Positions 16,892 through 50,306 of a DNA stretch of 64,000 nucleotides are shown one piece after another. The stretch's first letter is position 1; the number at the start of each line of letters is the position of its first letter. The notes below the pieces were generated by a model. The model saw nothing but the letters and a program-made list of their open reading frames with translations, did no database searches and was not told the origin of the DNA. The position numbers and the translations under genes are program-made. Source of the DNA: Myxococcota bacterium (GTDB taxonomy: Bacteria; Myxococcota_A; UBA9160; UBA6930); assembly GCA_965223705.1 (NCBI GenBank), contig OZ245015.1, positions 2,368,001 through 2,432,000 on the forward strand, read 5' to 3'.

Positions 16892-17350
16892 TCAGGCTTT
16901 GGGTTCGAGGACCACCACCGGGATCTGTCGAGGGTCTGCCGCTTTCTGGTACTCCGCGAACGGCGGATACATATCCACCATCTGCGCCCAGACCTTCTCG
17001 CGCTCGGCTCCTGCAAGCTCGCGCGTGGTGGCCGGGAACTCGTCGTTCGCGACCTTCACCTTGACTTCGTCCTGGGCGTTCAGGTTGTGATACCAGCCCG
17101 GATGCTTCGGGTGACCACCCTTCGAAGCGATGATCGCGTAGCCGGTGCCCGTCTTGCCGTAGAGCAGGGGCATGATGCTCTCCTTGCCGGACTTCCGGCC
17201 CTTCGTGAACAAGAGGAGCGTCGGCAGCGGGCCGGGGCCTCCCCCTACGGTCGAATCCCACAGGTGAGCCGCCTCACCATCTTCAAGGTAAAGCTTGCGG
17301 TGCTTGGCAATCCAACCGGTTTCACTGGCTTCTACGATGGGGTCACTCAT
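16892..17350 (-). CDS. Deazaflavin (F420H2)-dependent nitroreductase family protein (DDN/FDOR-A)
   Basis: LLLFTKGRKSG, ASKGG..HPGWYHNL and YQ...RQIPVVVL motifs. Confidence 0.92.
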   Translation of the reverse strand: MSDPIVEASETGWIAKHRKLYLEDGEAAHLWDSTVGGGPGPLPTLLLFTKGRKSGKESIMPLLYGKTGTGYAIIASKGGHPKHPGWYHNLNAQDEVKVKVANDEFPATTRELAGAEREKVWAQMVDMYPPFAEYQKAADPRQIPVVVLEPKA

Positions 17351-22612: not shown

Positions 22613-23332
22613 TCAGGGTGACTTGAGGAGGATACGCCCGCAGCCGTCGCAGTGAACGACTTCGCCGCTCCCCTCGAGTGCGGTGAGCGCCATCTCGCGG
22701 ACGGTCAGACCACACCGCCCACAATTGCGACCCTTGAGTTCGCTGAGGACACGGCCGGCGAGACCCTTGTGTGTGCGGAGGCGCTCGTAGGGTTCTCGGA
22801 GCGGCTCCGGAACGGCTCGCACGAGACCGACCCGGCGGGTCTCGCGATCCGCGATTTCCCGATCGAGCGCATTTTCCCGCGCTTCGAGTCGGGCGGCGAG
22901 CTCTGCCCGCTCGCATTCGAGCGCTGCGATCTGCTCCTCGCAGGCACGGACGTCGCCCTTCCTTTCTTCCTCCGCCTCCATCAGCGCGAGCTGCTCCTCT
23001 TCGATGGAGCTTCGCCGCGCCTTCAGGCCTTGGACCTCTCCTTGGAGCCCCTCGAGCTCTTTCGCCACGGTGACCGCACCGGAATAGAGCTTCGCTTCCT
23101 CGGTTTCGATGCGTTGCGAAAGTCGATTCGTTTCGGCCTCTCGTTCGGCGATTTGTTCGCCGAGCGCCGCGCAACGGGCTCGCGCGGCCTCTGCGGCCCC
23201 TCGCTCGCCGGCCATCGTCTCGGTGCAGCGCGCGATCGCGCTTCGCTCGGGGAGGGTCCGTCTCTCCTCCTCGAGTTCTCGCACTTCGAGATCGAGACCT
23301 TGAAGCGCGAAGAGCGGGTGATCCGGAGCCAT
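22613..23332 (-). CDS. Coiled-coil protein with C4 zinc ribbon (DUF164-like)
   Basis: LQGLD N-terminus, long coiled coil, CGRC...CDGCGRIL. Confidence 0.87.
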   Translation of the reverse strand: MAPDHPLFALQGLDLEVRELEEERRTLPERSAIARCTETMAGERGAAEAARARCAALGEQIAEREAETNRLSQRIETEEAKLYSGAVTVAKELEGLQGEVQGLKARRSSIEEEQLALMEAEEERKGDVRACEEQIAALECERAELAARLEARENALDREIADRETRRVGLVRAVPEPLREPYERLRTHKGLAGRVLSELKGRNCGRCGLTVREMALTALEGSGEVVHCDGCGRILLKSP

Positions 23333-23369
23333 CGCGCCGGAGCCTATCAGGGGATGATACCCTGCGCCG

Positions 23370-23804
23370 ATGGCCGCCGTTCGCAAAGCCCGCCCCGACG
23401 ACCTCGAAGCTGTCATCGAACTGCTCAAGACTTTTCCCGACGATCCGGAGCTCAAGGACATCGACTGGAACGACGGCCGGCGCATCTACGCCGATCTCCT
23501 ATCGGGCGATCGCGGAGCCATCTTCGTCGCCGATGCCGACGGCGTCGTGGTCGGGATCGTGACCCTGGGCTTCTCCGTGGCGATGCGGTTCGGGGGCCCC
23601 TACGCAATGATCGAGGAGTTCTTGATTTCCGAGCAGGCGCGGGGGCAAGGCCTAGCGCGCCCCCTGCTCCGCGCGGCGCGCGAAGAAGCCGAAGCGCGCG
23701 GGTGCCGCGAGCTTCAGGTCAACGGCCCAAGCCCGGAGGGCACCCCGGTCTACTTGCGGAACGGCTTTCACGAGGCTGGAAGTCATCTCAAGATTTGGCT
23801 GTAG
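23370..23804 (+). CDS. GNAT family N-acetyltransferase
   Basis: VRKARPDD N-terminus, ARGQGLA acetyl-CoA motif, YLRNGF. Confidence 0.87.
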   Translation: MAAVRKARPDDLEAVIELLKTFPDDPELKDIDWNDGRRIYADLLSGDRGAIFVADADGVVVGIVTLGFSVAMRFGGPYAMIEEFLISEQARGQGLARPLLRAAREEAEARGCRELQVNGPSPEGTPVYLRNGFHEAGSHLKIWL

Positions 23805-23806
23805 TC

Positions 23807-24415
23807 GTGCGCGTGATTCACTACTTCGACTACAAGAGCCCCTACGCCTACATCGCTCAGGAAGACACCTTCGCCCTGGCCGCGCGACCCGGGATCGAGG
23901 TCGAGTGGCGACCCTACACACTGGATATTCCCCAGTATCTTGGGTCCGCTCGGGTGGGAGACGACGGCGCCGTCGTCGAAGAAAGCCGCAACGCGCACCA
24001 ATGGCGCCGCGTGAAGTACGCGTACATGGACTGCCGTCGCGAGGCGAATCGACGCGGCTTGACCGTGCTCGGACCCCGCAAGATCTTCGATTCAACGATC
24101 GCCCACGTGGGTTTCTTGTTCGCCAGGGACGCGGGGAATTTCGAGGACTACCACAACCGGGTGTATCGCTCGTTCTGGAAGCGCGAGCTCGACATCGAAG
24201 ATCCCGCTCTGATCGAGGAGACGCTGGCGGCTTGCGGGGTCCCGGCCGACGGATTTCGCGCGTACCTCGAGGGCGAGGGCCGTCGGGCCCTCGAGGCCGC
24301 GCAGCGCGAAGCCGAAGACGCTGGCGTTTTCGGCGTGCCGAGCTACCGCGTCGGTAGCGAGCTCTACTGGGGGCTCGAGCGATTGCCTCGGGTGCTCGAG
24401 CACGTGGGCAGCTAG
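23807..24415 (+). CDS. DsbA family, kappa-GST/2-hydroxychromene-2-carboxylate isomerase-like protein
   Basis: YFDYKSPYAY and GVFGVPSY..ELYWG.ERL motifs; start re-picked at GTG 23807. Confidence 0.87.
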   Translation: MRVIHYFDYKSPYAYIAQEDTFALAARPGIEVEWRPYTLDIPQYLGSARVGDDGAVVEESRNAHQWRRVKYAYMDCRREANRRGLTVLGPRKIFDSTIAHVGFLFARDAGNFEDYHNRVYRSFWKRELDIEDPALIEETLAACGVPADGFRAYLEGEGRRALEAAQREAEDAGVFGVPSYRVGSELYWGLERLPRVLEHVGS

Positions 24416-41920: not shown

Positions 41921-42781
41921 GTGACGGCGATCGGAGTCATCGGATTCCCGACGGACCAAACCATCGACCCCGCCGCCTTGGGTCCGGAGCTCGAAGCGCG
42001 CGGCTTCGAGTCGATCTTCTACGCGGAACATACGCACATCCCGACGAGCCGACGCTCCCCGTTTCCGGTCGGCGGCGAGCTGCCCGAGATGTATTGGCGA
42101 TCCCACGACCAATTCGTGGCGCTCTCCATGGTTGCGGCGGTCACGAAGACGCTCAAGCTCGGCACCGGCATCACACTCGTGCCAGAACACGATCCGATCA
42201 ACCTCGCGAAGCGCGTCGCGTCGCTCGATCGGTTGTCCGGCGGGCGTGTTCTCTTCGGAATCGGCGCGGGCTGGAATGCCGAAGAAATGGAAGATCACGG
42301 CGTCGCCTTCCAAGACCGCTGGAAAGTGACGCGGGAGCGGGTTCTCGCCATGCGCGCGATCTGGACCGAAGACGAGCCCTCGTTCCACGGCGAGTTCGTG
42401 GATCTGCCCCCGATGTGGTGCTGGCCGAAACCGGTTCAGCCGGGCGGCCCGCCGGTCATTCTCGGCGCTTGGTCGAAGTGGACGCCCGCGCGAATCGCCG
42501 AGTATTGCGACGGCTGGATGCCCATCGAGGGCCAGGGCGACATCGAGAGTTCACTGCGGGCGATTCGCGCCGCCTACAAAGACGCCGGTCGCCCCGCCGA
42601 CGGACTCGATGTCACGATGCTCGCGGCCTCGAGCCCCGACCGCGGACCGGATCTACGCCGTCTTGCCCAGTGCGCCGAACAGGGAGTCGGTCGGGTTCTC
42701 CTGCCCATTCCGAACGAGCCGCGCGACGCGGTCCTCAAGGTCCTCGACAGTTATTCGGAAATTCTCGAGCGCTTCCACTAA
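41921..42781 (+). CDS. LLM class F420-dependent oxidoreductase
   Basis: FPTD, GFESIFYAEHTHIPTSR and LAKRVASLDRLSGGR..GWNAEEM motifs. Confidence 0.9.
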   Translation: MTAIGVIGFPTDQTIDPAALGPELEARGFESIFYAEHTHIPTSRRSPFPVGGELPEMYWRSHDQFVALSMVAAVTKTLKLGTGITLVPEHDPINLAKRVASLDRLSGGRVLFGIGAGWNAEEMEDHGVAFQDRWKVTRERVLAMRAIWTEDEPSFHGEFVDLPPMWCWPKPVQPGGPPVILGAWSKWTPARIAEYCDGWMPIEGQGDIESSLRAIRAAYKDAGRPADGLDVTMLAASSPDRGPDLRRLAQCAEQGVGRVLLPIPNEPRDAVLKVLDSYSEILERFH

Positions 42782-44007
42782 GCGCGCTGCCGCTTCTCGA
42801 AATCCTCGACCCATTTGACCACCGAGTAATGCTGGTAGCGCAGGGCCAACTCGTGGTCGTGGAACGTGAACGTCTCGCACAGGCCTTCGGAGATCGCGGT
42901 CTGTATGCGCTCTAGCGTGTTGCAATCTTCGCGTACGGCATCGCGGAGCTCGACGATCGCGTTCTCCTGGCCGAAGCGTTGGGCGGCATTGCTCGCCGGC
43001 TGCAGGTAGCCGTGCATCTGCCACTGCACTTCGCCCGGCCCGAGCGGCCACATCGTGTGGGTGAAGAACATTCCCGGTCCGATGATCAGCACGACGTTTG
43101 GAAAGAAGACGTGGAGATCGAGGGTCCACGCGGGGTGACGCGCCGGATTCACTCCGACGGGAAGGCTCTCGATCTGCGACGCGTCGCTTCCCCCGCTCGT
43201 GACCGGTGGTCCGGCGGCGAACTGCCAGGCCAGACCTTGCACGGGAAAGGGTTTGTAGTCGGGGTTTCCGGCCAGCGTTGCCGTGCGGTGCGGATACTTC
43301 GGGTAGAAGTCGATCAGCCGCCCCGTCGGGTTGTCCGGACCGCAGATCGATTCCGCCACCGACCGTTTGTGCAGGAACGGCACGTGGTAGATCTCCGTAA
43401 AGGAGTCGATCATCAGCTTCCAGTTGGTCTTGATGCGCGCCTGGAACTCGAACTCCGCGTTCCGTTGGCCGAACTGCCAGAAGCCGGCGAGCTCTCGGCC
43501 CTGGGCCCCTAAGTAGTCGGCCAAGGACTGCTCGGGCGCAGGGTTCAGATTGATAAAGATGAACCCCTCCCAGACGTCGGTCGCCACCGGAGGTAGACCG
43601 CGCTTCTCCCGGTCGAGGTCGTAGAAAGCCTTCTGATCCGGAACACCTTGGAGCTCCCCTTCGAGGTTGTACGCCCAGCCGTGGAACGGGCACTGGAACA
43701 GGTTGCAGTTCCCCTTCTCGCGAAGCTCGACGATCGTGCCGCGATGCTGGCAGACATTGTGGAACCCGCGAACCACGCCGTCTTTTCCCCGAGCCAGGAT
43801 GATCGAGAGTGCAAACGTCGGGAGCTCTTGGGTCACGAAGTCGCCGGCTTCGGGAATCCGATCTTCGCGACCCACGCAGAGCCAGGCCTGCCGAAAGATC
43901 GCGGCGAGCTCGCGCTGGTAGAACTCTTCTCTCCAGTACACGTCCGTCGAAACCGGGCCGGTGCCGACTTCGGGATGGCGCTGGGTGAGGCCTGTCGGGC
44001 TCGTCAT
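42778..44007 (-). CDS. Rieske non-haem iron oxygenase alpha subunit 1
   Basis: CQHRG...CPFHGW Rieske ligands; NWK..DSFTEIYHVPFLH and ED mononuclear Fe site; ATGA overlap with upstream small gene. Confidence 0.93.
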   Translation of the reverse strand: MTSPTGLTQRHPEVGTGPVSTDVYWREEFYQRELAAIFRQAWLCVGREDRIPEAGDFVTQELPTFALSIILARGKDGVVRGFHNVCQHRGTIVELREKGNCNLFQCPFHGWAYNLEGELQGVPDQKAFYDLDREKRGLPPVATDVWEGFIFINLNPAPEQSLADYLGAQGRELAGFWQFGQRNAEFEFQARIKTNWKLMIDSFTEIYHVPFLHKRSVAESICGPDNPTGRLIDFYPKYPHRTATLAGNPDYKPFPVQGLAWQFAAGPPVTSGGSDASQIESLPVGVNPARHPAWTLDLHVFFPNVVLIIGPGMFFTHTMWPLGPGEVQWQMHGYLQPASNAAQRFGQENAIVELRDAVREDCNTLERIQTAISEGLCETFTFHDHELALRYQHYSVVKWVEDFEKRQRA

Positions 44008-44366
44008 GACGGCTCCTGAGCTTCTAGATCCGCGAGCGGGACGGTCATTGGAAAGCGCTCGTGAGGCAATCCATCCACCACATTGGGCTGGTCGTACCAC
44101 TCGACGGCGGGACCGACCTCGGCCAAGGACAGGAGTAGCTTGAGCAGGCACTCCCAGGGCGGCGTGAGCTCGCCGAGTTTTCGTTGCGATAGATCCTCGA
44201 GTGCCTTGGGAGCGATGTCGATCATCGCCTCGTAGAAAGCGCGGATCTCTTGGATGGAGCGCGTGTGGCGCGCTGCGGTCCGCTCGCCGCTGCCGCCGAG
44301 TGCCCACACCGCGGCAAACGGCTCGAGGGTTTCGTAACCGGCGGGAAGCTCGAAACCCGCCGTCAC
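44004..44366 (-). CDS. Uncharacterised ~120-aa Rieske-associated protein, paralogue 1
   Basis: Overlaps both neighbours by 4 nt; shares the LP..L..F...W...R...R...FY.A...LL.L...E..PAV..Y.QP.V...ERF pattern with two paralogues. Confidence 0.85.
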   Translation of the reverse strand: MTAGFELPAGYETLEPFAAVWALGGSGERTAARHTRSIQEIRAFYEAMIDIAPKALEDLSQRKLGELTPPWECLLKLLLSLAEVGPAVEWYDQPNVVDGLPHERFPMTVPLADLEAQEPS

Positions 44367-45598
44367 GAGCCGGCGCTCGCTAATCCCTCATCGATCAGAC
44401 GCTTGACGACCGCGTACTGGTGGCGACAGGGAACTTCCATATCGGCGAAATGAATCTCCTTGAGGGATCCCGACATGATTCCGGCTTGGGAGCCTTCACT
44501 CGTCGCGATGTCTTCGCGAAACGCGTCGCGCAGGAGCGCAATCGATTGCTCCTGTGCGATCCGTTGTGACGGCGTCTCCGGCGGCACGAAATAGAGCGAC
44601 GCCTCCCAGCGCGTGGTCGCCGCATCGATCGGCCAGAACTCGTGGATGAAGAAGAAGCCCGCCGACGTGTCGAGTAGCCAGTTCGGGAAGATCGCGTTGA
44701 TGTCGAAGGAGTAGTAGGGATCGTCATCGGGGTTCGTGCCGGGGAGCTTCTTCGCGAGTGCGGCCTCACCTTGACTGAGGGACTCGCCGATCTGCACGGC
44801 GAAACGCTCGGAGGGATGAGGCTCGAAGTCGGGGTTGAACGAAAACGACATCGCGCGGTTCCGCTCGTACAGCTCGAGGTGATACGGGCGGCATCCCGGG
44901 TTGCGCCCGCCCGTGAAGTATTCGCCGATCGTGCCGGCGTGCACGGTCGCAACGTGGTAGCCCTCTTGGAAGGCGTCGAGAAATAGCTTCCAGTTCGCCT
45001 TCAAGGTGGCGCCCCAACGGCCGGCCACAGACATCGACTCGAAGGGGAAGCCTGTGAGCTTCTCGCCGATCTCCGCGAGTTGCTCTTCGAGCGTTTCGCG
45101 GGGTGTCTCGTCGAAGTTCACGAAGATGAAGTCTTTCCACGTCTCGCAGTGGACCGCATCGAGATTCAAGCGGCTCTTGTCGAGCTCGTAGAACTGAGAC
45201 TCCTCGGGGACGTCGCGGATATTTCCCTCGGTGTCGTAGACCCAACCGTGAAAGCGACAGGTGAAGTACTTACAGTTCCCCGCCCCTTCCGCGACGTTCG
45301 TGCCGCGATGCCGGCACACATTGTGGAACGCTCGAATCTCGCCATCTTTGCCGCGCACGACGATGATGCTCTTGCCGAGAATCTCGACCTTCTTGACGAA
45401 GTAGTCGCCCTTGCCCGGGACCTGGTCTGCCCGGCCCACCATGAGCCACAGACGCGAAAAAATGTGGTCGCGCTCGAGCGCGAGATGCTCCGGCGAGACA
45501 AAAGGCGCCACCGATACGGGCCCGGTCCCCAACTCGGGGTAGCGCTCGGCGTTGCGGTGGTCTTTCGACGTGAGATCGAGGGTCTGTGCGGCGCTCAT
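44363..45598 (-). CDS. Rieske non-haem iron oxygenase alpha subunit 2
   Basis: CRHRG...CRFHGW; NWK..DAFQEGYHVATVH and REDI motifs. Confidence 0.93.
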   Translation of the reverse strand: MSAAQTLDLTSKDHRNAERYPELGTGPVSVAPFVSPEHLALERDHIFSRLWLMVGRADQVPGKGDYFVKKVEILGKSIIVVRGKDGEIRAFHNVCRHRGTNVAEGAGNCKYFTCRFHGWVYDTEGNIRDVPEESQFYELDKSRLNLDAVHCETWKDFIFVNFDETPRETLEEQLAEIGEKLTGFPFESMSVAGRWGATLKANWKLFLDAFQEGYHVATVHAGTIGEYFTGGRNPGCRPYHLELYERNRAMSFSFNPDFEPHPSERFAVQIGESLSQGEAALAKKLPGTNPDDDPYYSFDINAIFPNWLLDTSAGFFFIHEFWPIDAATTRWEASLYFVPPETPSQRIAQEQSIALLRDAFREDIATSEGSQAGIMSGSLKEIHFADMEVPCRHQYAVVKRLIDEGLASAGS

Positions 45599-45960
45599 GA
45601 CGGCATTCCTCCATCGACGACGCGGTAGCGCCTCGGCGCGGGAAGGATCTCAAATTTCTCGTAGGCAACCGAGTGCGGGACGTCGGGGGCCTGGTAGTAC
45701 TCGATCGCGGGAGCGATCTCCATCGTCATGAGCGCGAGCTCGAGGAGATTCGCCGCGTCTCGGGGCAGCGCGTCGAGTGTGTGCCGATCGAGTGCCCGGG
45801 CGATCTCCCTCATGCGCGGCATGGTGGCGTCGTAGAAGTCTCGGAGTTTTTCGATGGGTTGACCGACCCGGAAAGCATTGCGCTCCCGCTCGGTGCCGTG
45901 AACCCATTCTGGCACGAACCGTGCCAGCGACTCGAACCCTTCGGGAAGAACCTGACTCAT
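45595..45960 (-). CDS. Uncharacterised ~120-aa Rieske-associated protein, paralogue 2
   Basis: MSQVLPEGFESLARFVPEW...; same pattern as paralogues 1 and 3; ATGA overlap with alpha 2. Confidence 0.85.
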   Translation of the reverse strand: MSQVLPEGFESLARFVPEWVHGTERERNAFRVGQPIEKLRDFYDATMPRMREIARALDRHTLDALPRDAANLLELALMTMEIAPAIEYYQAPDVPHSVAYEKFEILPAPRRYRVVDGGMPS

Positions 45961-45982
45961 CCCCACAATTTACCACCCGGGC

Positions 45983-46303
45983 TTACAGTTCCGGCATCTC
46001 GACATAGAGGTAGCCGTCTTCTCCGACCGTCACCGGGTAGCTCGCCACCGGGGTCACGCAGGGCGCGCCGGTGACCGCGCCCGTCCGGATGTCGAATGTT
46101 CCGTCGTGAAACGGACAGACGATGTCGTTGCCCTCGATGTCGCCTTCGGACAGGAATGCTGCCCCGTGGGTACACACGTCGTCGGTCGCGTAGAACGCCC
46201 CCCCGACCTTGTAGACCGCGACGGGTTCTCGGCCGTCGATCTCGACTTGTTTGACAGAATCGTCCGACAGTTCGCCCGCGGGAATTGTTCGCAGTAGAGC
46301 CAT
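45983..46303 (-). CDS. Rieske-type [2Fe-2S] ferredoxin (dioxygenase ferredoxin subunit)
   Basis: 106 aa; CTHG...CPFHDGTFDIRTG. Confidence 0.93.
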   Translation of the reverse strand: MALLRTIPAGELSDDSVKQVEIDGREPVAVYKVGGAFYATDDVCTHGAAFLSEGDIEGNDIVCPFHDGTFDIRTGAVTGAPCVTPVASYPVTVGEDGYLYVEMPEL

Positions 46304-46314
46304 ACCCGCAACGT

Positions 46315-46324
46315 ATCGTAGAAT
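46315..46324. promoter_or_regulatory. Overlapping back-to-back -10 hexamers (candidate bidirectional promoter)
   Basis: TAGAAT (+, 46319-46324) and TACGAT (-, 46320-46315) in the 47-bp divergent gap. Confidence 0.5.
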
Positions 46325-46350
46325 CACACGAAATCATGCCGAGGAGCCCT

Positions 46351-46701
46351 ATGCCGCGTTCTCTGCCCGAAAAGTTTGCCGAACTCGAGCGCTTCGTCCC
46401 CGAATGGGTGATCGATTCCGAAGCGGATCGATACACCTTCCGCGTGAATCGCACGATCGAGGAGCTCGACGCGTTCTACGGGGCCGTCTTCCCTCGCATC
46501 GACGACCTCGCAAACCACATCGATCAGTATCCGCTCGACGGTATGCCCAGGGACGCCGTCAATCTGCTCCGCCTGGGTCAGATGCTGATGGAGGTCTCTC
46601 CGGCGGTCGGCGTCTACCGACAGCCCGATGTTCCGAACTCGACTCCGTTTGAACGCTTCACGGTGATTTCCCCGCAGGAACCGATCCGCGTCCTCGATTG
46701 A
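46351..46701 (+). CDS. Uncharacterised ~120-aa Rieske-associated protein, paralogue 3
   Basis: GAGGAG SD; MPRSLPEKFAELERFVPEW...EVSPAVGVYRQPDVP..FERF. Confidence 0.85.
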   Translation: MPRSLPEKFAELERFVPEWVIDSEADRYTFRVNRTIEELDAFYGAVFPRIDDLANHIDQYPLDGMPRDAVNLLRLGQMLMEVSPAVGVYRQPDVPNSTPFERFTVISPQEPIRVLD

Positions 46702-46712
46702 TTGGAGAACGA

Positions 46713-47990
46713 ATGAGCACCCAAATCGAAAACCGACCCGAAGCCCGTCTGCCCGACTGGGACAACACCAACCCCGTCAAGGAGCGCTATCCGGAAATCG
46801 ATACACCTCCGATTCCCATCGAAGCCTATGTCTCCGAAGACTTCTTCGAAGCGGAGCGCGAGAAGATCTTCAAGAAGAAATGGCTCTACGCCGGTCGCAT
46901 GGAACGGCTGCAGAAGCCCGGCGACTACTTCGTCAACACCATGGAGGTGCTCCGCACGAAGAAGGACGGGACCTACCCGTCGTTCGTGATCACCCGTGAC
47001 GATCACGGCGAAGTCCGGGCGTTCTACAACGCGTGCAAGCACCGCGGCACCAAGGTTTGCTGGGACGACTCCGAGACCTGGGAGAGCAGCAACCGCAAGT
47101 ACTTCACCTGTCGTTTCCACGGCTGGGTGTACGGAAACGACGGCAGCCTCAAACACGTTCCCGACGAGAATCAGTTCTTCGATCTCAACAAGGCGGAACG
47201 CGGCCTCACGCCGGTGCACTGCGCGGTATGGAAGGACTTCATCTTCATCAATGTCGACCCCGCTCCGAGCCAAACGCTCGAAGAGCAGCTCGGCCCGCAC
47301 GCGACGAACTTGAAGGATTTCCCGTTCGAGCGACTCCGCAAGACCGGCATCTGGACCGCGGTGATGGACTGCAACTGGAAAGTCGCGATCGACGCGTTCC
47401 AAGAGGGCTACCACGTCGCGACCGTGCACGCGGGAACCATGCCCAACGCGTTCAACGGCTCGCTGAACCCCTACTGCCGGCCCACTTCGGTGCGCGTCTA
47501 TCCCGGCGGCAACCGCTCGATCACGTTTATGGTGTCGCCCGAGTACAAACCGGACGAGCTCGAAATGTGGGTGCGCCAGCGCGGAGCGAACTGGTACGCC
47601 GCTGCCGAAGACGGTTCCACGAACGACTTCGTCGGCGTGAACCCCGAGAACGATCCCTTCTTCGCGTTCGACTGCCACGGGATCTTCCCGAATTTGCTGG
47701 TCGATCCGTTCATCGGTGGGTTCTACGGTCATGAGTTCTGGCCGATCACGGTCAACAAAACGCGCTGGATCGGAAGCATCAACTTCCTCGCCCCGCAGAA
47801 ACCGAGCGACATTCTGTCGAACGAGCACGGGAAGATCTTGCTGCGTGATGCGTTCCGCGAGGACACCGTCACCCTCGACGCGTCTCAGGAAGGGATCGAG
47901 TCCGGAGGCCTCACCGACGTCATCATGTGCGACCACGAGATGGCGCCCCGCCACCTGTACAACGCGGTGGTCGAGATGGTGAACTCGTGA
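46713..47990 (+). CDS. Rieske non-haem iron oxygenase alpha subunit 3
   Basis: CKHRG...CRFHGW; NWK..DAFQEGYHVATVH and REDT motifs; GGAG SD. Confidence 0.93.
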   Translation: MSTQIENRPEARLPDWDNTNPVKERYPEIDTPPIPIEAYVSEDFFEAEREKIFKKKWLYAGRMERLQKPGDYFVNTMEVLRTKKDGTYPSFVITRDDHGEVRAFYNACKHRGTKVCWDDSETWESSNRKYFTCRFHGWVYGNDGSLKHVPDENQFFDLNKAERGLTPVHCAVWKDFIFINVDPAPSQTLEEQLGPHATNLKDFPFERLRKTGIWTAVMDCNWKVAIDAFQEGYHVATVHAGTMPNAFNGSLNPYCRPTSVRVYPGGNRSITFMVSPEYKPDELEMWVRQRGANWYAAAEDGSTNDFVGVNPENDPFFAFDCHGIFPNLLVDPFIGGFYGHEFWPITVNKTRWIGSINFLAPQKPSDILSNEHGKILLRDAFREDTVTLDASQEGIESGGLTDVIMCDHEMAPRHLYNAVVEMVNS

Positions 47991-49753
47991 GACGAGCCTC
48001 GAGGTTTCTTTTCGCGTGCGCGCTGCTCGCGGCGGCGAACCTCGCCGAGGCGGGTCAGGTCAGCGGCAGCGTTGTCGACGAGCAAGGCCAGCCGATCCCC
48101 TTCGTGCGCATCCTCGTTGCGATTCCCGGAGGATCGCCCGCAACCGTCTCGGTGTGGAGCGCTGCCGACGGGAGTTTCGCCTCGCCGCCGCTGTCGGTGT
48201 CCGGCGACGCGATCCAGGCCTCCTCGTTCCGGATCGGCTGGGAGGAGACCTCGCGAGATCGCACGACGACCGGGGACGACGTGACGCTCAAGATCGCGAT
48301 GAAGCGGATCGGCAACGTCGCGCACCAGGTCCCCGCATCGGCGTGGATACCGGGCGAACCCGGCGAACGGGCCTACCACACCCTGGTCCACGAGTGCTCG
48401 AACTGTCACCAGATGAGCGCCGACCGCGTTCGCCGCTTCGCGTCGACCCTGGCGGAGGCCGACGAGCAGGCTCGCACCCTCGCTTGGGAGGGTATCGTCC
48501 AGATGATGCGCGGTGTGGCCTTCACCATGGGCCCCTCTGGCCAGGCCCAGCTCCGCTGGGGCCTCACGCCGGAGTCACCGGACTACCAAGCCGCGCTCGC
48601 GCCCGAGACGAGCTTCTTCCTGCCGAAGGATATGGATCTCGTGGTGCCGCTCTTGGCAAAATCCTTCCCTTCGAGTTTCGACGAGCTGACGGGGTACGAC
48701 GACGTCAACGAACTCGGCGACTACGGCGTCACGAAAAACACCGTCGTCGAAGAATTCGTCTTGCCGAGCTTTGGCTGGACGCGGGAGGTGGCCATCGCTC
48801 CTGGATCGCCTCTCGTCTGGTTCGTCGAGCTCGACGGCGACCGGTTGGGAAGCCTCGATCCGAAGACGGGCGAGGTCAATTGGTACGACGTGCCGGGTGA
48901 AGGGCCGCAGGGACCGCACACGATCAACGCCGACGCCGAGGGCGGCCTGTGGATCGCGCTCGAAGAGAGCTACGGGATTGCGCGTTTCGACACGAAGACC
49001 ACGCAATGGAAGGTCTACCCGCCGCCTCCGGACGTCAAGTTCGCCATCACCCACGACACGGCGTTCAACGAGTTGCGCCAGATCGAGATCGATTCCGAGC
49101 GGAAGATCTGGCTCACCCTGATCGGGATCAATGAGCTTTGGAGCGTTCACGTCGACAGCGGAAAGATCGAGCGGTATCCCATGCCGCTTCCCGAAGACGA
49201 GGAGCTCTTTCATGTGTTCCTCTACGGAGCGGTGATGGAGCCGGGCGGGAAGCGGGTCTGGTGGTCTCAACTCCACGGCAGTGTCGGCGCCTTCAACACC
49301 GAAACGAAAGAGGTCGACCGGCTGATCCCGCTCCCCCAGGGTGCCGCACCCCGGCGTATGGCGATTCAAGCGGACGGCATGCTCTGGGTGCCGCTCTTCG
49401 GCGAAGGCCAGCTTCTCAAGCTCGACACCAACACGGGCGAGGAAGTCGCCCGCTATGACCTGCCCGATCGCGCCGCGGCGTCGTATTCCGTGACGATCGA
49501 TCCCAAGCGGAAGGCGATCTGGGTGGGGACGACGAACTCCGATCGGATCTACCGCTTCGACATCGCCGACGCGCGCTGGCGACAATACCCGCTCCCGCGC
49601 AAAGAGGCGTATCTCCGATCGATCGAGCTCGATCACGAGACCGGCGACCTATGGACGAGTTACGCGAACCTGCCGGTCGGAAAACGCGATCCCGAAGTGT
49701 TTGGCTCCGAGAGCGCAAACAACATGATCGTACGACTGCGGCCGGGTGACTAG
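47987..49753 (+). CDS. Secreted protein: carboxypeptidase-regulatory-like beta-sandwich, haem c site and Vgb (streptogramin lyase)-like beta-propeller
   Basis: Signal peptide; VSGSVVDEQGQPIP domain; CSNCH at 48395-48409; repeated blades (WF.E..G.LDP.TG, P....D..G.LW); GTGA overlap with alpha 3. Confidence 0.8.
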   Translation: MRRASRFLFACALLAAANLAEAGQVSGSVVDEQGQPIPFVRILVAIPGGSPATVSVWSAADGSFASPPLSVSGDAIQASSFRIGWEETSRDRTTTGDDVTLKIAMKRIGNVAHQVPASAWIPGEPGERAYHTLVHECSNCHQMSADRVRRFASTLAEADEQARTLAWEGIVQMMRGVAFTMGPSGQAQLRWGLTPESPDYQAALAPETSFFLPKDMDLVVPLLAKSFPSSFDELTGYDDVNELGDYGVTKNTVVEEFVLPSFGWTREVAIAPGSPLVWFVELDGDRLGSLDPKTGEVNWYDVPGEGPQGPHTINADAEGGLWIALEESYGIARFDTKTTQWKVYPPPPDVKFAITHDTAFNELRQIEIDSERKIWLTLIGINELWSVHVDSGKIERYPMPLPEDEELFHVFLYGAVMEPGGKRVWWSQLHGSVGAFNTETKEVDRLIPLPQGAAPRRMAIQADGMLWVPLFGEGQLLKLDTNTGEEVARYDLPDRAAASYSVTIDPKRKAIWVGTTNSDRIYRFDIADARWRQYPLPRKEAYLRSIELDHETGDLWTSYANLPVGKRDPEVFGSESANNMIVRLRPGD

Positions 49754-50306
49754 AGCGCACCGGTTCGCGTGGGCGTCTTTCGCCCTACTCCTCACGTTCT
49801 CGGCGCTTTCGGCGCGGGGCGAAGGAGAAGCTTCTGAAATCATCGAGCTCGGCAACCTGCGCCTCGAGGACGTGTGGATCAGGTCCGCGATCGGAAGCCG
49901 TCACGCGAAACTCTTCTTTACGTTTCGCAACCTCGGCCCCGACGACCGCTTGATCGTCGTCCGGTCGCAGCACGCATCGGGCCCCACGTTCTTCCGCACC
50001 GTCCGTCGCGGCCCATCGGGTCGCGAAGTCCGCACCGCGGAAGCAATCCCGATTCCGAGCACCCACCGTCCCTACGAGCTGAGCGAAGTCGGCCATTACG
50101 TGGAACTCACGGACCTCGAAAGGCCGCTCGTCATGGGCAGCCAACTGCCGGTGAGGCTCGAATTCGAGGGTGCTGGAAGCGTGACTCTCGACGTGACGAA
50201 CCGCTTCCACTCGCCGAGGCTCGCACGGCGGATTCGCGAGGCCATTCGCGCGAACGATGTCGAGAAATTGCGCGCGCTTCAGGAAGGCGAGAGGCCAGCG
50301 CGCTGA
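49746..50306 (+). CDS. Periplasmic PCuAC (copper chaperone)-fold protein with degenerate metal ligands
   Basis: Signal peptide; L.LEDVWIR, F..RN.G.DDRL, IPIP and L..L..PL..G..LPV.LEFEGAG.V pattern of PCuAC; His/Met ligand set not evident. Confidence 0.68.
   Translation: MTRAHRFAWASFALLLTFSALSARGEGEASEIIELGNLRLEDVWIRSAIGSRHAKLFFTFRNLGPDDRLIVVRSQHASGPTFFRTVRRGPSGREVRTAEAIPIPSTHRPYELSEVGHYVELTDLERPLVMGSQLPVRLEFEGAGSVTLDVTNRFHSPRLARRIREAIRANDVEKLRALQEGERPAR

What the first reader, a model, noticed from the sequence alone, without database searches (positions are those of the whole stretch)
42778..47990. Three Rieske oxygenases, each paired 1:1 with an uncharacterised ~120-aa partner: candidate new oxygenase subunit or partner family
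Seen: the order [small]-[alpha] occurs three times (45960>45595 before alpha 2, 44366>44004 before alpha 1, 46351>46701 before alpha 3). Two pairs are coupled by ATGA overlaps and the third has an 11-nt gap. The small proteins share LP..(F/Y)..L..F...W......R...R......(L/I)..FY.A...LL.L....E..PA(V/I)..Y..P.V......E(R/K)F and look mostly helical. The alphas share an N-terminal (Y/H)PE(L/V/I).T.P(V/I) motif. Established: classical Rieske beta subunits are NTF2-fold proteins, usually ~160-200 aa, and these lack that pattern. Inference: the gene pair duplicated as a unit, so the small protein may be a dedicated non-canonical subunit, assembly factor or electron-transfer adaptor. I recall similar pairs annotated only as hypothetical in actinobacterial genomes but cannot verify this.
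Basis: partly seen in the sequence, partly recalled or inferred. Interest (0 to 1): 0.88.

Follow-up and report, generated by a model that had tools for sequence, protein, structure and literature searches.

The report
Helical partner subunit of Rieske oxygenases
One branch of the Rieske oxygenases, iron enzymes that bacteria use to attack tough organic molecules, nearly always carries a gene for a small unnamed helical protein in place of the textbook small subunit, and a structure model places that protein on the enzyme's catalytic domain, so it is probably an undescribed subunit.

Summary
Confirmed. Three intact Rieske alpha genes each follow a 116-121-aa gene; a Rieske ferredoxin heads the run. 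The small proteins match no Pfam, NCBIfam or PDB entry searched, model as an all-helical fold, and belong to a family of 1,275 clusters. 105 of 117 homologues abut an alpha gene. The 90 paired alphas form one clade, and the two trees mirror each other (r 0.76). In four genomes, 0 of 23 clade alphas had a classical beta gene nearby and 20 had the small gene; of 56 other alphas, 32 had a beta and none the small gene. Where the genes are unlinked, cognate partners persist. Complex model: score 0.93, best control 0.00 (mark reached by 116 of 157 solved complexes, 2 of 215 mismatched pairs), on the helix bearing the iron ligand Asp361. Best reading: a stable non-NTF2 subunit (0.62); a transient assembly factor is the rival. 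Binding, stoichiometry and substrate are untested. Nine literature searches found no description. This scan's notes report what appears to be the same pairing on other DNA six times.

The parts
42778..44007 (-). Rieske oxygenase alpha 1 (409 aa): C86, H88, C106, H109; bridging E205; iron ligands H208, H213, D361
44004..44366 (-). Small helical partner S1 (120 aa, GTG start); overlaps the stop of alpha 2 and the start of alpha 1; cognate to alpha 1 by tree; modelled bound to alpha 1
44363..45598 (-). Rieske oxygenase alpha 2 (411 aa)
45595..45960 (-). Small helical partner S2 (121 aa); AlphaFold model with mean pLDDT 89, four helices
45983..46303 (-). Rieske-type ferredoxin (106 aa), the only one of its type found in the genome; probable shared electron donor
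46304..46350 (.). 47-nt spacer between the divergent ferredoxin and S3 starts; no sigma-70-like site found
46351..46701 (+). Small helical partner S3 (116 aa)
46713..47990 (+). Rieske oxygenase alpha 3 (425 aa)

Best explanation
The small protein is a dedicated, stably bound, non-catalytic subunit of one clade of Rieske oxygenases, taking the place that the NTF2-fold beta subunit has in classical enzymes. Shown: gene pairing, restriction to one clade, mirrored trees, mutual exclusion with the beta gene, intact catalytic residues. Modelled: its helical hairpin packs on the alpha catalytic domain, along helix 341-363 (which carries iron ligand Asp361), helix 254-263 and strand 184-192. Inferred: its C-terminal tail adds an antiparallel strand to that sheet; it braces the active-site helix and keeps the alpha folded and active, probably at 1:1 in an alpha3-partner3 assembly; electrons come from a reductase encoded elsewhere through the adjacent ferredoxin to the Rieske cluster, then across Glu205 to the mononuclear iron. 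The substrate is unknown.
For: Adjacency in 105 of 117, with gene order switching at least 10 times on the alpha tree. The 90 paired alphas are monophyletic against 51 others, support 0.94; 0 of 49 non-clade neighbourhoods hold a small gene. The same 12 of 151 Sphingomonadaceae-centred genomes hold both genes, and the same 5 of about 300 Gammaproteobacteria-centred genomes. Beta exclusion: 0 of 23 clade alphas against 32 of 56 others. Mirror r 0.76 on 90 pairs, 0.67 on 60 dereplicated pairs, permutation maxima 0.16 and 0.18. Unlinked but cognate partners in G316, G407 and G430. Complex score 0.93 with best of 3 controls 0.00; the mark was reached by 116 of 157 solved complexes and 2 of 215 mismatched pairs (counts hold only roughly, as my own alignments were used); the runs agree in at least 96% of contacts, partner pLDDT at least 91, 129-131 contacts. 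No like complex was found in the PDB, so a pass from memory is less likely. The tail that contacts the alpha is the less confident part of the lone S2 model (pLDDT 72-80 against 92-98).
Against: No experiment. A model cannot tell a permanent subunit from a transient chaperone. 10 of 117 small genes have no alpha nearby (3 of them at contig ends). G313 has 3 clade alphas with no adjacent small gene and one unlinked small gene. Within G674 the small and alpha distances do not correlate (r -0.11, n 7). Linked genes give mirrored trees through co-inheritance alone. The top structural matches of the alpha include CntA, which works without a second subunit (recalled). The invariant R29 and R33 are not among the listed interface residues, so part of the conservation is unexplained.
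Confidence: 0.62

Rival explanations
1. A private assembly or maturation factor: it binds the alpha catalytic domain transiently, to help folding, trimer formation or loading of the mononuclear iron, and is then released.
For: The same linkage, clade restriction and modelled interface. The interface lies on the helix with the iron ligand and touches residues 215-216, next to His213. Fewer small genes than alphas in G313 would suit a shared helper. The proteins are acidic (mean net charge -6.8).
Against: Translational coupling and one copy per alpha in most genomes (6 and 6 in G000, 8 and 8 in G674) suggest equal amounts. A 130-contact interface with probable strand addition looks permanent (inference).
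Confidence: 0.22
2. A bound effector: it stays on the enzyme but gates substrate access or couples electron delivery to turnover, like the regulatory proteins of di-iron monooxygenases (comparison recalled).
For: It is modelled on the catalytic domain near the iron-bearing helix; invariant R29 and R33 are free for a second partner or ligand; its sequence tracks the alpha subclade.
Against: It has no cofactor ligands. It is retained with different electron chains, which argues against a ferredoxin adaptor. No Rieske-domain residue is in the modelled interface.
Confidence: 0.11
3. A separate small enzyme or binding protein of the same pathways, acting on the oxygenase product, with no physical role in the oxygenase.
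For: Conserved Arg, Tyr, Trp and Glu residues; in two Myxococcota-type loci it lies before a DsbA/HCCA-isomerase-like gene rather than an alpha.
Against: It follows the alpha clade through very different gene contexts, and the complex model passes with controls at 0.00.
Confidence: 0.05

Closest known systems
Beta subunit of alpha3beta3 Rieske ring-hydroxylating oxygenases (Pfam PF00866; naphthalene, biphenyl, toluene and terephthalate dioxygenases)
   Same: Small, cofactor-free, encoded beside an alpha gene, clade-specific; probably structural.
   Different: No PF00866 match; helical model rather than NTF2; about 120 aa; found on either side of the alpha gene; mutually exclusive with PF00866 in the genomes counted.
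CntA carnitine monooxygenase and stachydrine demethylase (PDB 6Y9C, 3VCA); glycine betaine monooxygenase GbcA
   Same: Among the best sequence and fold matches of the alphas; a Glu at the bridging position (E205 in 80 of 84; aligned with CntA).
   Different: Only about 19% identity in the fold alignment and far below the curated cut-off (about 110 against 670 bits for GbcA); these enzymes have no such partner (recalled). No member of this alpha clade was found in the PDB: best 193 bits against 403-611 for members.
NdmE of the caffeine demethylase complex NdmCDE (recalled, not tested)
   Same: A non-canonical, non-catalytic structural partner of a Rieske system.
   Different: NdmE is GST-like (recalled); none of 149 members of this family matches a GST family at E 0.01.
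Skatole-induced cluster of Acinetobacter piscicola p38 (PMC11434297; table passages seen)
   Same: gene1684 (alpha), gene1687 (styrene monooxygenase) and gene1690 (ferredoxin) are listed as induced, with the spacing of locus L013: alpha, small gene, NTF2, monooxygenase, flavin reductase, SDR, ferredoxin.
   Different: The match is by gene order only; gene1685 is not named in the main text; supplements were not read.

Membership tests
Rieske oxygenase alpha subunit | Rieske C-x-H...C-x-x-H motif | tested here: met
   invariant in 84 of 84; Pfam PF00355
Rieske oxygenase alpha subunit | 2-His-1-Asp iron triad and bridging carboxylate | tested here: met
   H208, H213, D361 in 84 of 84; E or D at 205 in 84 of 84; PF00848
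Rieske oxygenase alpha subunit | O2-dependent activity on a substrate | not testable with these tools
   no assay; substrate unknown
Classical beta subunit (PF00866) | Match to the PF00866 profile | tested here: not met
   0 of 3 window proteins, 0 of 149 members
Classical beta subunit (PF00866) | NTF2-like alpha+beta fold | tested here: not met
   the confident model (pLDDT 89) has four helices and no strand of 3 or more residues
Classical beta subunit (PF00866) | Gene adjacent to an alpha gene | tested here: met
   105 of 117
Classical beta subunit (PF00866) | Stable stoichiometric complex with the alpha | tested here: inconclusive
   the model supports a binary complex, 0.93 against best control 0.00; stability and stoichiometry not tested
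Iron-sulfur or other electron carrier | Conserved Cys or His ligands | tested here: not met
   only one column has Cys plus His above 20% (His in 33 of 84)
Any solved fold | Structural match in the PDB | tested here: inconclusive
   Foldseek no E under 0.001; VIA-align best Z 4.4

The most novel reading that the evidence does not exclude
A third quaternary architecture of Rieske oxygenases: a widespread clade in which an all-helical subunit, unrelated to the NTF2 beta subunit, is obligatory, clamps the helix that holds the catalytic iron and is matched to its own alpha. This would mean these alphas cannot be assayed without their small neighbour gene.
Probability: 0.5. Interest if true: 0.82.

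Novelty: new variant of a known kind. Interest (0 to 1): 0.72.

Why it matters
Rieske oxygenases are usually sorted into alpha-only and alpha-beta forms (established). A large clade with a different partner would extend that scheme, name a family of over a thousand 50%-identity clusters now labelled hypothetical, and give a practical rule: express the small neighbour gene with the alpha. The clade occurs in catabolic clusters of sphingomonads, Acinetobacter, Burkholderiales, Rhodococcus and Streptomyces, so uncharacterised degradation steps and biocatalysts may become testable.

Tried and rejected
Known identity for the small protein: none in Pfam, NCBIfam, PDB sequence or fold searches; the Atlas gave only unnamed clusters, with a recognition value below its mark. 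Fusion to an alpha: none among proteins of 257-2000 aa, weak evidence; the 476-aa open frame in G057 is only a long stop-to-stop frame. Clade-specific alpha positions in the modelled interface: 3 of 17 (E348, R355, E360) against about 2 expected, so not used as support. No RNA holder listed. No promoter-like site. Locus scans with broad alignments or S1 alone found nothing usable, so those scans rest on the S1 subclade. Literature leads rejected from passages read: PicB2 (10.1101/530550: 35-45% identical to classical components); Chol11 steroid monooxygenases (10.1101/2021.06.24.449856: KshA homologues); SktZ/SkaZ clusters (10.1101/2024.12.29.630347, PMC13101512: beside a classical alpha-beta pair; sequences not compared); PMC13599519 and PMC11957808 (nothing relevant in the passages). 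NTF2/SnoaL genes near some pairs are not always present and were not tested as subunits. S1 as partner of alpha 2: rejected by tree.
Full report
Observation. The three small genes and three alpha genes are at the stated coordinates, with two ATGA overlaps and one 11-nt gap. S1 also overlaps the stop of alpha 2, so the minus-strand run reads ferredoxin, S2, alpha 2, S1, alpha 1. S3 and alpha 3 run the other way from a 47-nt spacer. The alphas carry PF00355 and PF00848 but lie far below every NCBIfam cut-off. The small proteins match nothing in either library. Among 47 further window proteins scanned, none was a beta subunit or a ferredoxin reductase. The genome has one ferredoxin of this type, the one here, and one PF14759 reductase about 180 kb away. 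The closest named relatives are Myxococcota-labelled assemblies.

The family. A profile search found 1,275 clusters at 50% identity with E up to 0.001, 865 at 1e-10. None of 149 members shares a Pfam family with another. The S2 model is confident (mean pLDDT 89): four helices and a less ordered C-terminal tail. It has no PDB match by sequence or fold, which does not prove a new fold. Conserved positions are P, W, two Arg, Tyr, Leu and Glu; there are no conserved Cys or His; the proteins are acidic.

Small gene to alpha. In this genome 6 of 6 small genes abut the six top-scoring alphas, four before and two after. Across loci L001-L142, 117 distinct homologues passed my filter (40 bits, 75 profile positions; shorter partial matches were dropped). 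105 lay within 150 nt of a same-strand alpha, 2 within 1.5 kb, and 10 had none, three of those at contig ends. 53 loci came from scans seeded on the S1 subclade, so the sample is uneven, and kin are not independent.

Alpha to small gene. The 90 paired alphas formed one clade (support 0.94) against 51 other alphas from six genomes, and 0 of 49 neighbourhoods of those others held a small gene above 8 bits. In 151 genomes of the family of a Novosphingobium assembly, the same 12 held the small gene and a clade alpha. In a class-wide sample the same 5 held both (300 and 301 genomes scored). The tool scores a limited number of candidates per genome, and I set the alpha cut-off (E 1e-90) with a profile built from paired alphas, so the blanks are soft. 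Of the 24 plasmid records hit by alpha 2 I opened 10 not already seen: 8 had an adjacent small gene, one was a non-clade alpha and one was cut by IS6100.

Exclusion of the classical beta. In G316, G400, G407 and G674, 0 of 23 clade alphas had PF00866 within 1.5 kb and 20 had the small gene within 200 nt; 32 of 56 other alphas had PF00866 and none the small gene. G313 was left out of that table as it has no PF00866 match; it has 7 clade alphas, 4 with an adjacent small gene, and one unlinked small gene. In the own genome four of five PF00866 matches adjoin non-clade alphas and none a clade alpha.

Matched history. Tree distances correlate at r 0.76 over 90 pairs (permutation maximum 0.16); nearest neighbours agree in 48 of 90. 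After dereplication r is 0.67 over 60. Linkage alone can give this, so the unlinked cases matter more. In G316 the S1 relative (58% identical) and the alpha 1 relative (73%) lie on different contigs, each without an adjacent partner. In G407 an unlinked small gene and an alpha 1 Mb away are both nearest the same pairs, though that alpha lies just before another pair. In G430 they lie 4.5 kb apart and again match. Gene order switches at least 10 times on the alpha tree while adjacency is kept. Against: within G674 the correlation is -0.11 over 7 pairs (G000 0.87, G400 0.64, G316 0.41).

Complex model. Alpha 1 with S1, each with an 84-row alignment in matching order, scored 0.93 in three runs; the best of three controls scored 0.00. 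The mark was reached by 116 of 157 solved complexes and 2 of 215 mismatched pairs, counts that hold only roughly with my own alignments. The runs agree in at least 96% of contacts and partner pLDDT is at least 91. This supports binding but does not show it, and no non-cognate family member was among the controls. The interface is all on the catalytic domain: 184-192 (a strand), 215-216, 254-263 and 330-363, the last including the helix that bears Asp361. The contact series 186-109, 187-108, 188-107 suggests that the small protein's tail adds an antiparallel strand (inference). R29 and R33 are not listed in the interface.

Mechanism. The alphas are catalytically complete. The likely chain is reductase, ferredoxin, Rieske cluster, Glu205, mononuclear iron (established scheme; partners inferred). 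The small protein has no redox ligands and is kept beside ferredoxin-type and PDR/VanB-type chains alike, so it is unlikely to carry electrons. I read it as a stable subunit bracing the catalytic domain (0.62), ahead of a transient assembly factor (0.22), a bound effector (0.11) and a separate enzyme (0.05). The substrate here is unknown; the window is rich in luciferase-like monooxygenases, dehydrogenases and hydrolases.

Literature and novelty. Nine searches of the held library gave no paper describing this partner. I read search listings and passages of seven papers, no whole text and no supplements; subscription journals are mostly not held, so a description could have been missed. The only functional lead is the skatole-induced Acinetobacter cluster, matched by gene order. 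My reading was set before I consulted the scan's notes; six notes on other genomes describe what appears to be the same pairing, unchecked and not independent support. Verdict: real, a new variant of a known enzyme kind, interest 0.72.

Noticed in passing
window 47990-50306 (+): Directly after alpha 3: a probable exported protein with a carboxypeptidase-regulatory-like domain, a CxxCH motif and a Vgb-like propeller, overlapping a PCuAC copper-chaperone gene; only a weak match (E 0.05) to the lactonase-type N2O reductase model. Possibly a haem- and copper-dependent enzyme.
   Followed up: partly
window 46304-46350: Only 47 nt separate two divergent start codons; no sigma-70-like site. Both promoters must overlap genes or the spacer, or the block was recently rearranged.
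   Followed up: partly
window 22652-24412 (+); L025, L106: A DsbA/HCCA-isomerase-like gene 20 kb upstream is 57% identical to the gene that follows the unlinked S1 relative in G316, which may tie it to the alpha 1 pathway.
   Followed up: partly
window 33231-60685: Nine luciferase-like (flavin or F420-type) monooxygenase genes and an F420H2-dependent reductase gene at 16895-17350.
   Followed up: no
L083 (G379:C72): Two small genes in tandem before one alpha.
   Followed up: no
L145, L146: A shared block of alpha, small gene, two cupins, NTF2 protein, ferredoxin and asparaginase-like gene in Azospirillum and Paroceanicella plasmids, one beside catechol-pathway genes; substrate unknown.
   Followed up: no
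L144: In Variovorax WDL1 the pair lies with 2,5-dihydroxypyridine dioxygenase genes, suggesting a pyridine substrate.
   Followed up: no
G674: 49 Rieske alpha matches and 28 classical beta matches in a 3.1-Mb genome.
   Followed up: partly
G313: 28 alpha matches but no PF00866 match; one clade alpha (C18) is in two pieces.
   Followed up: no
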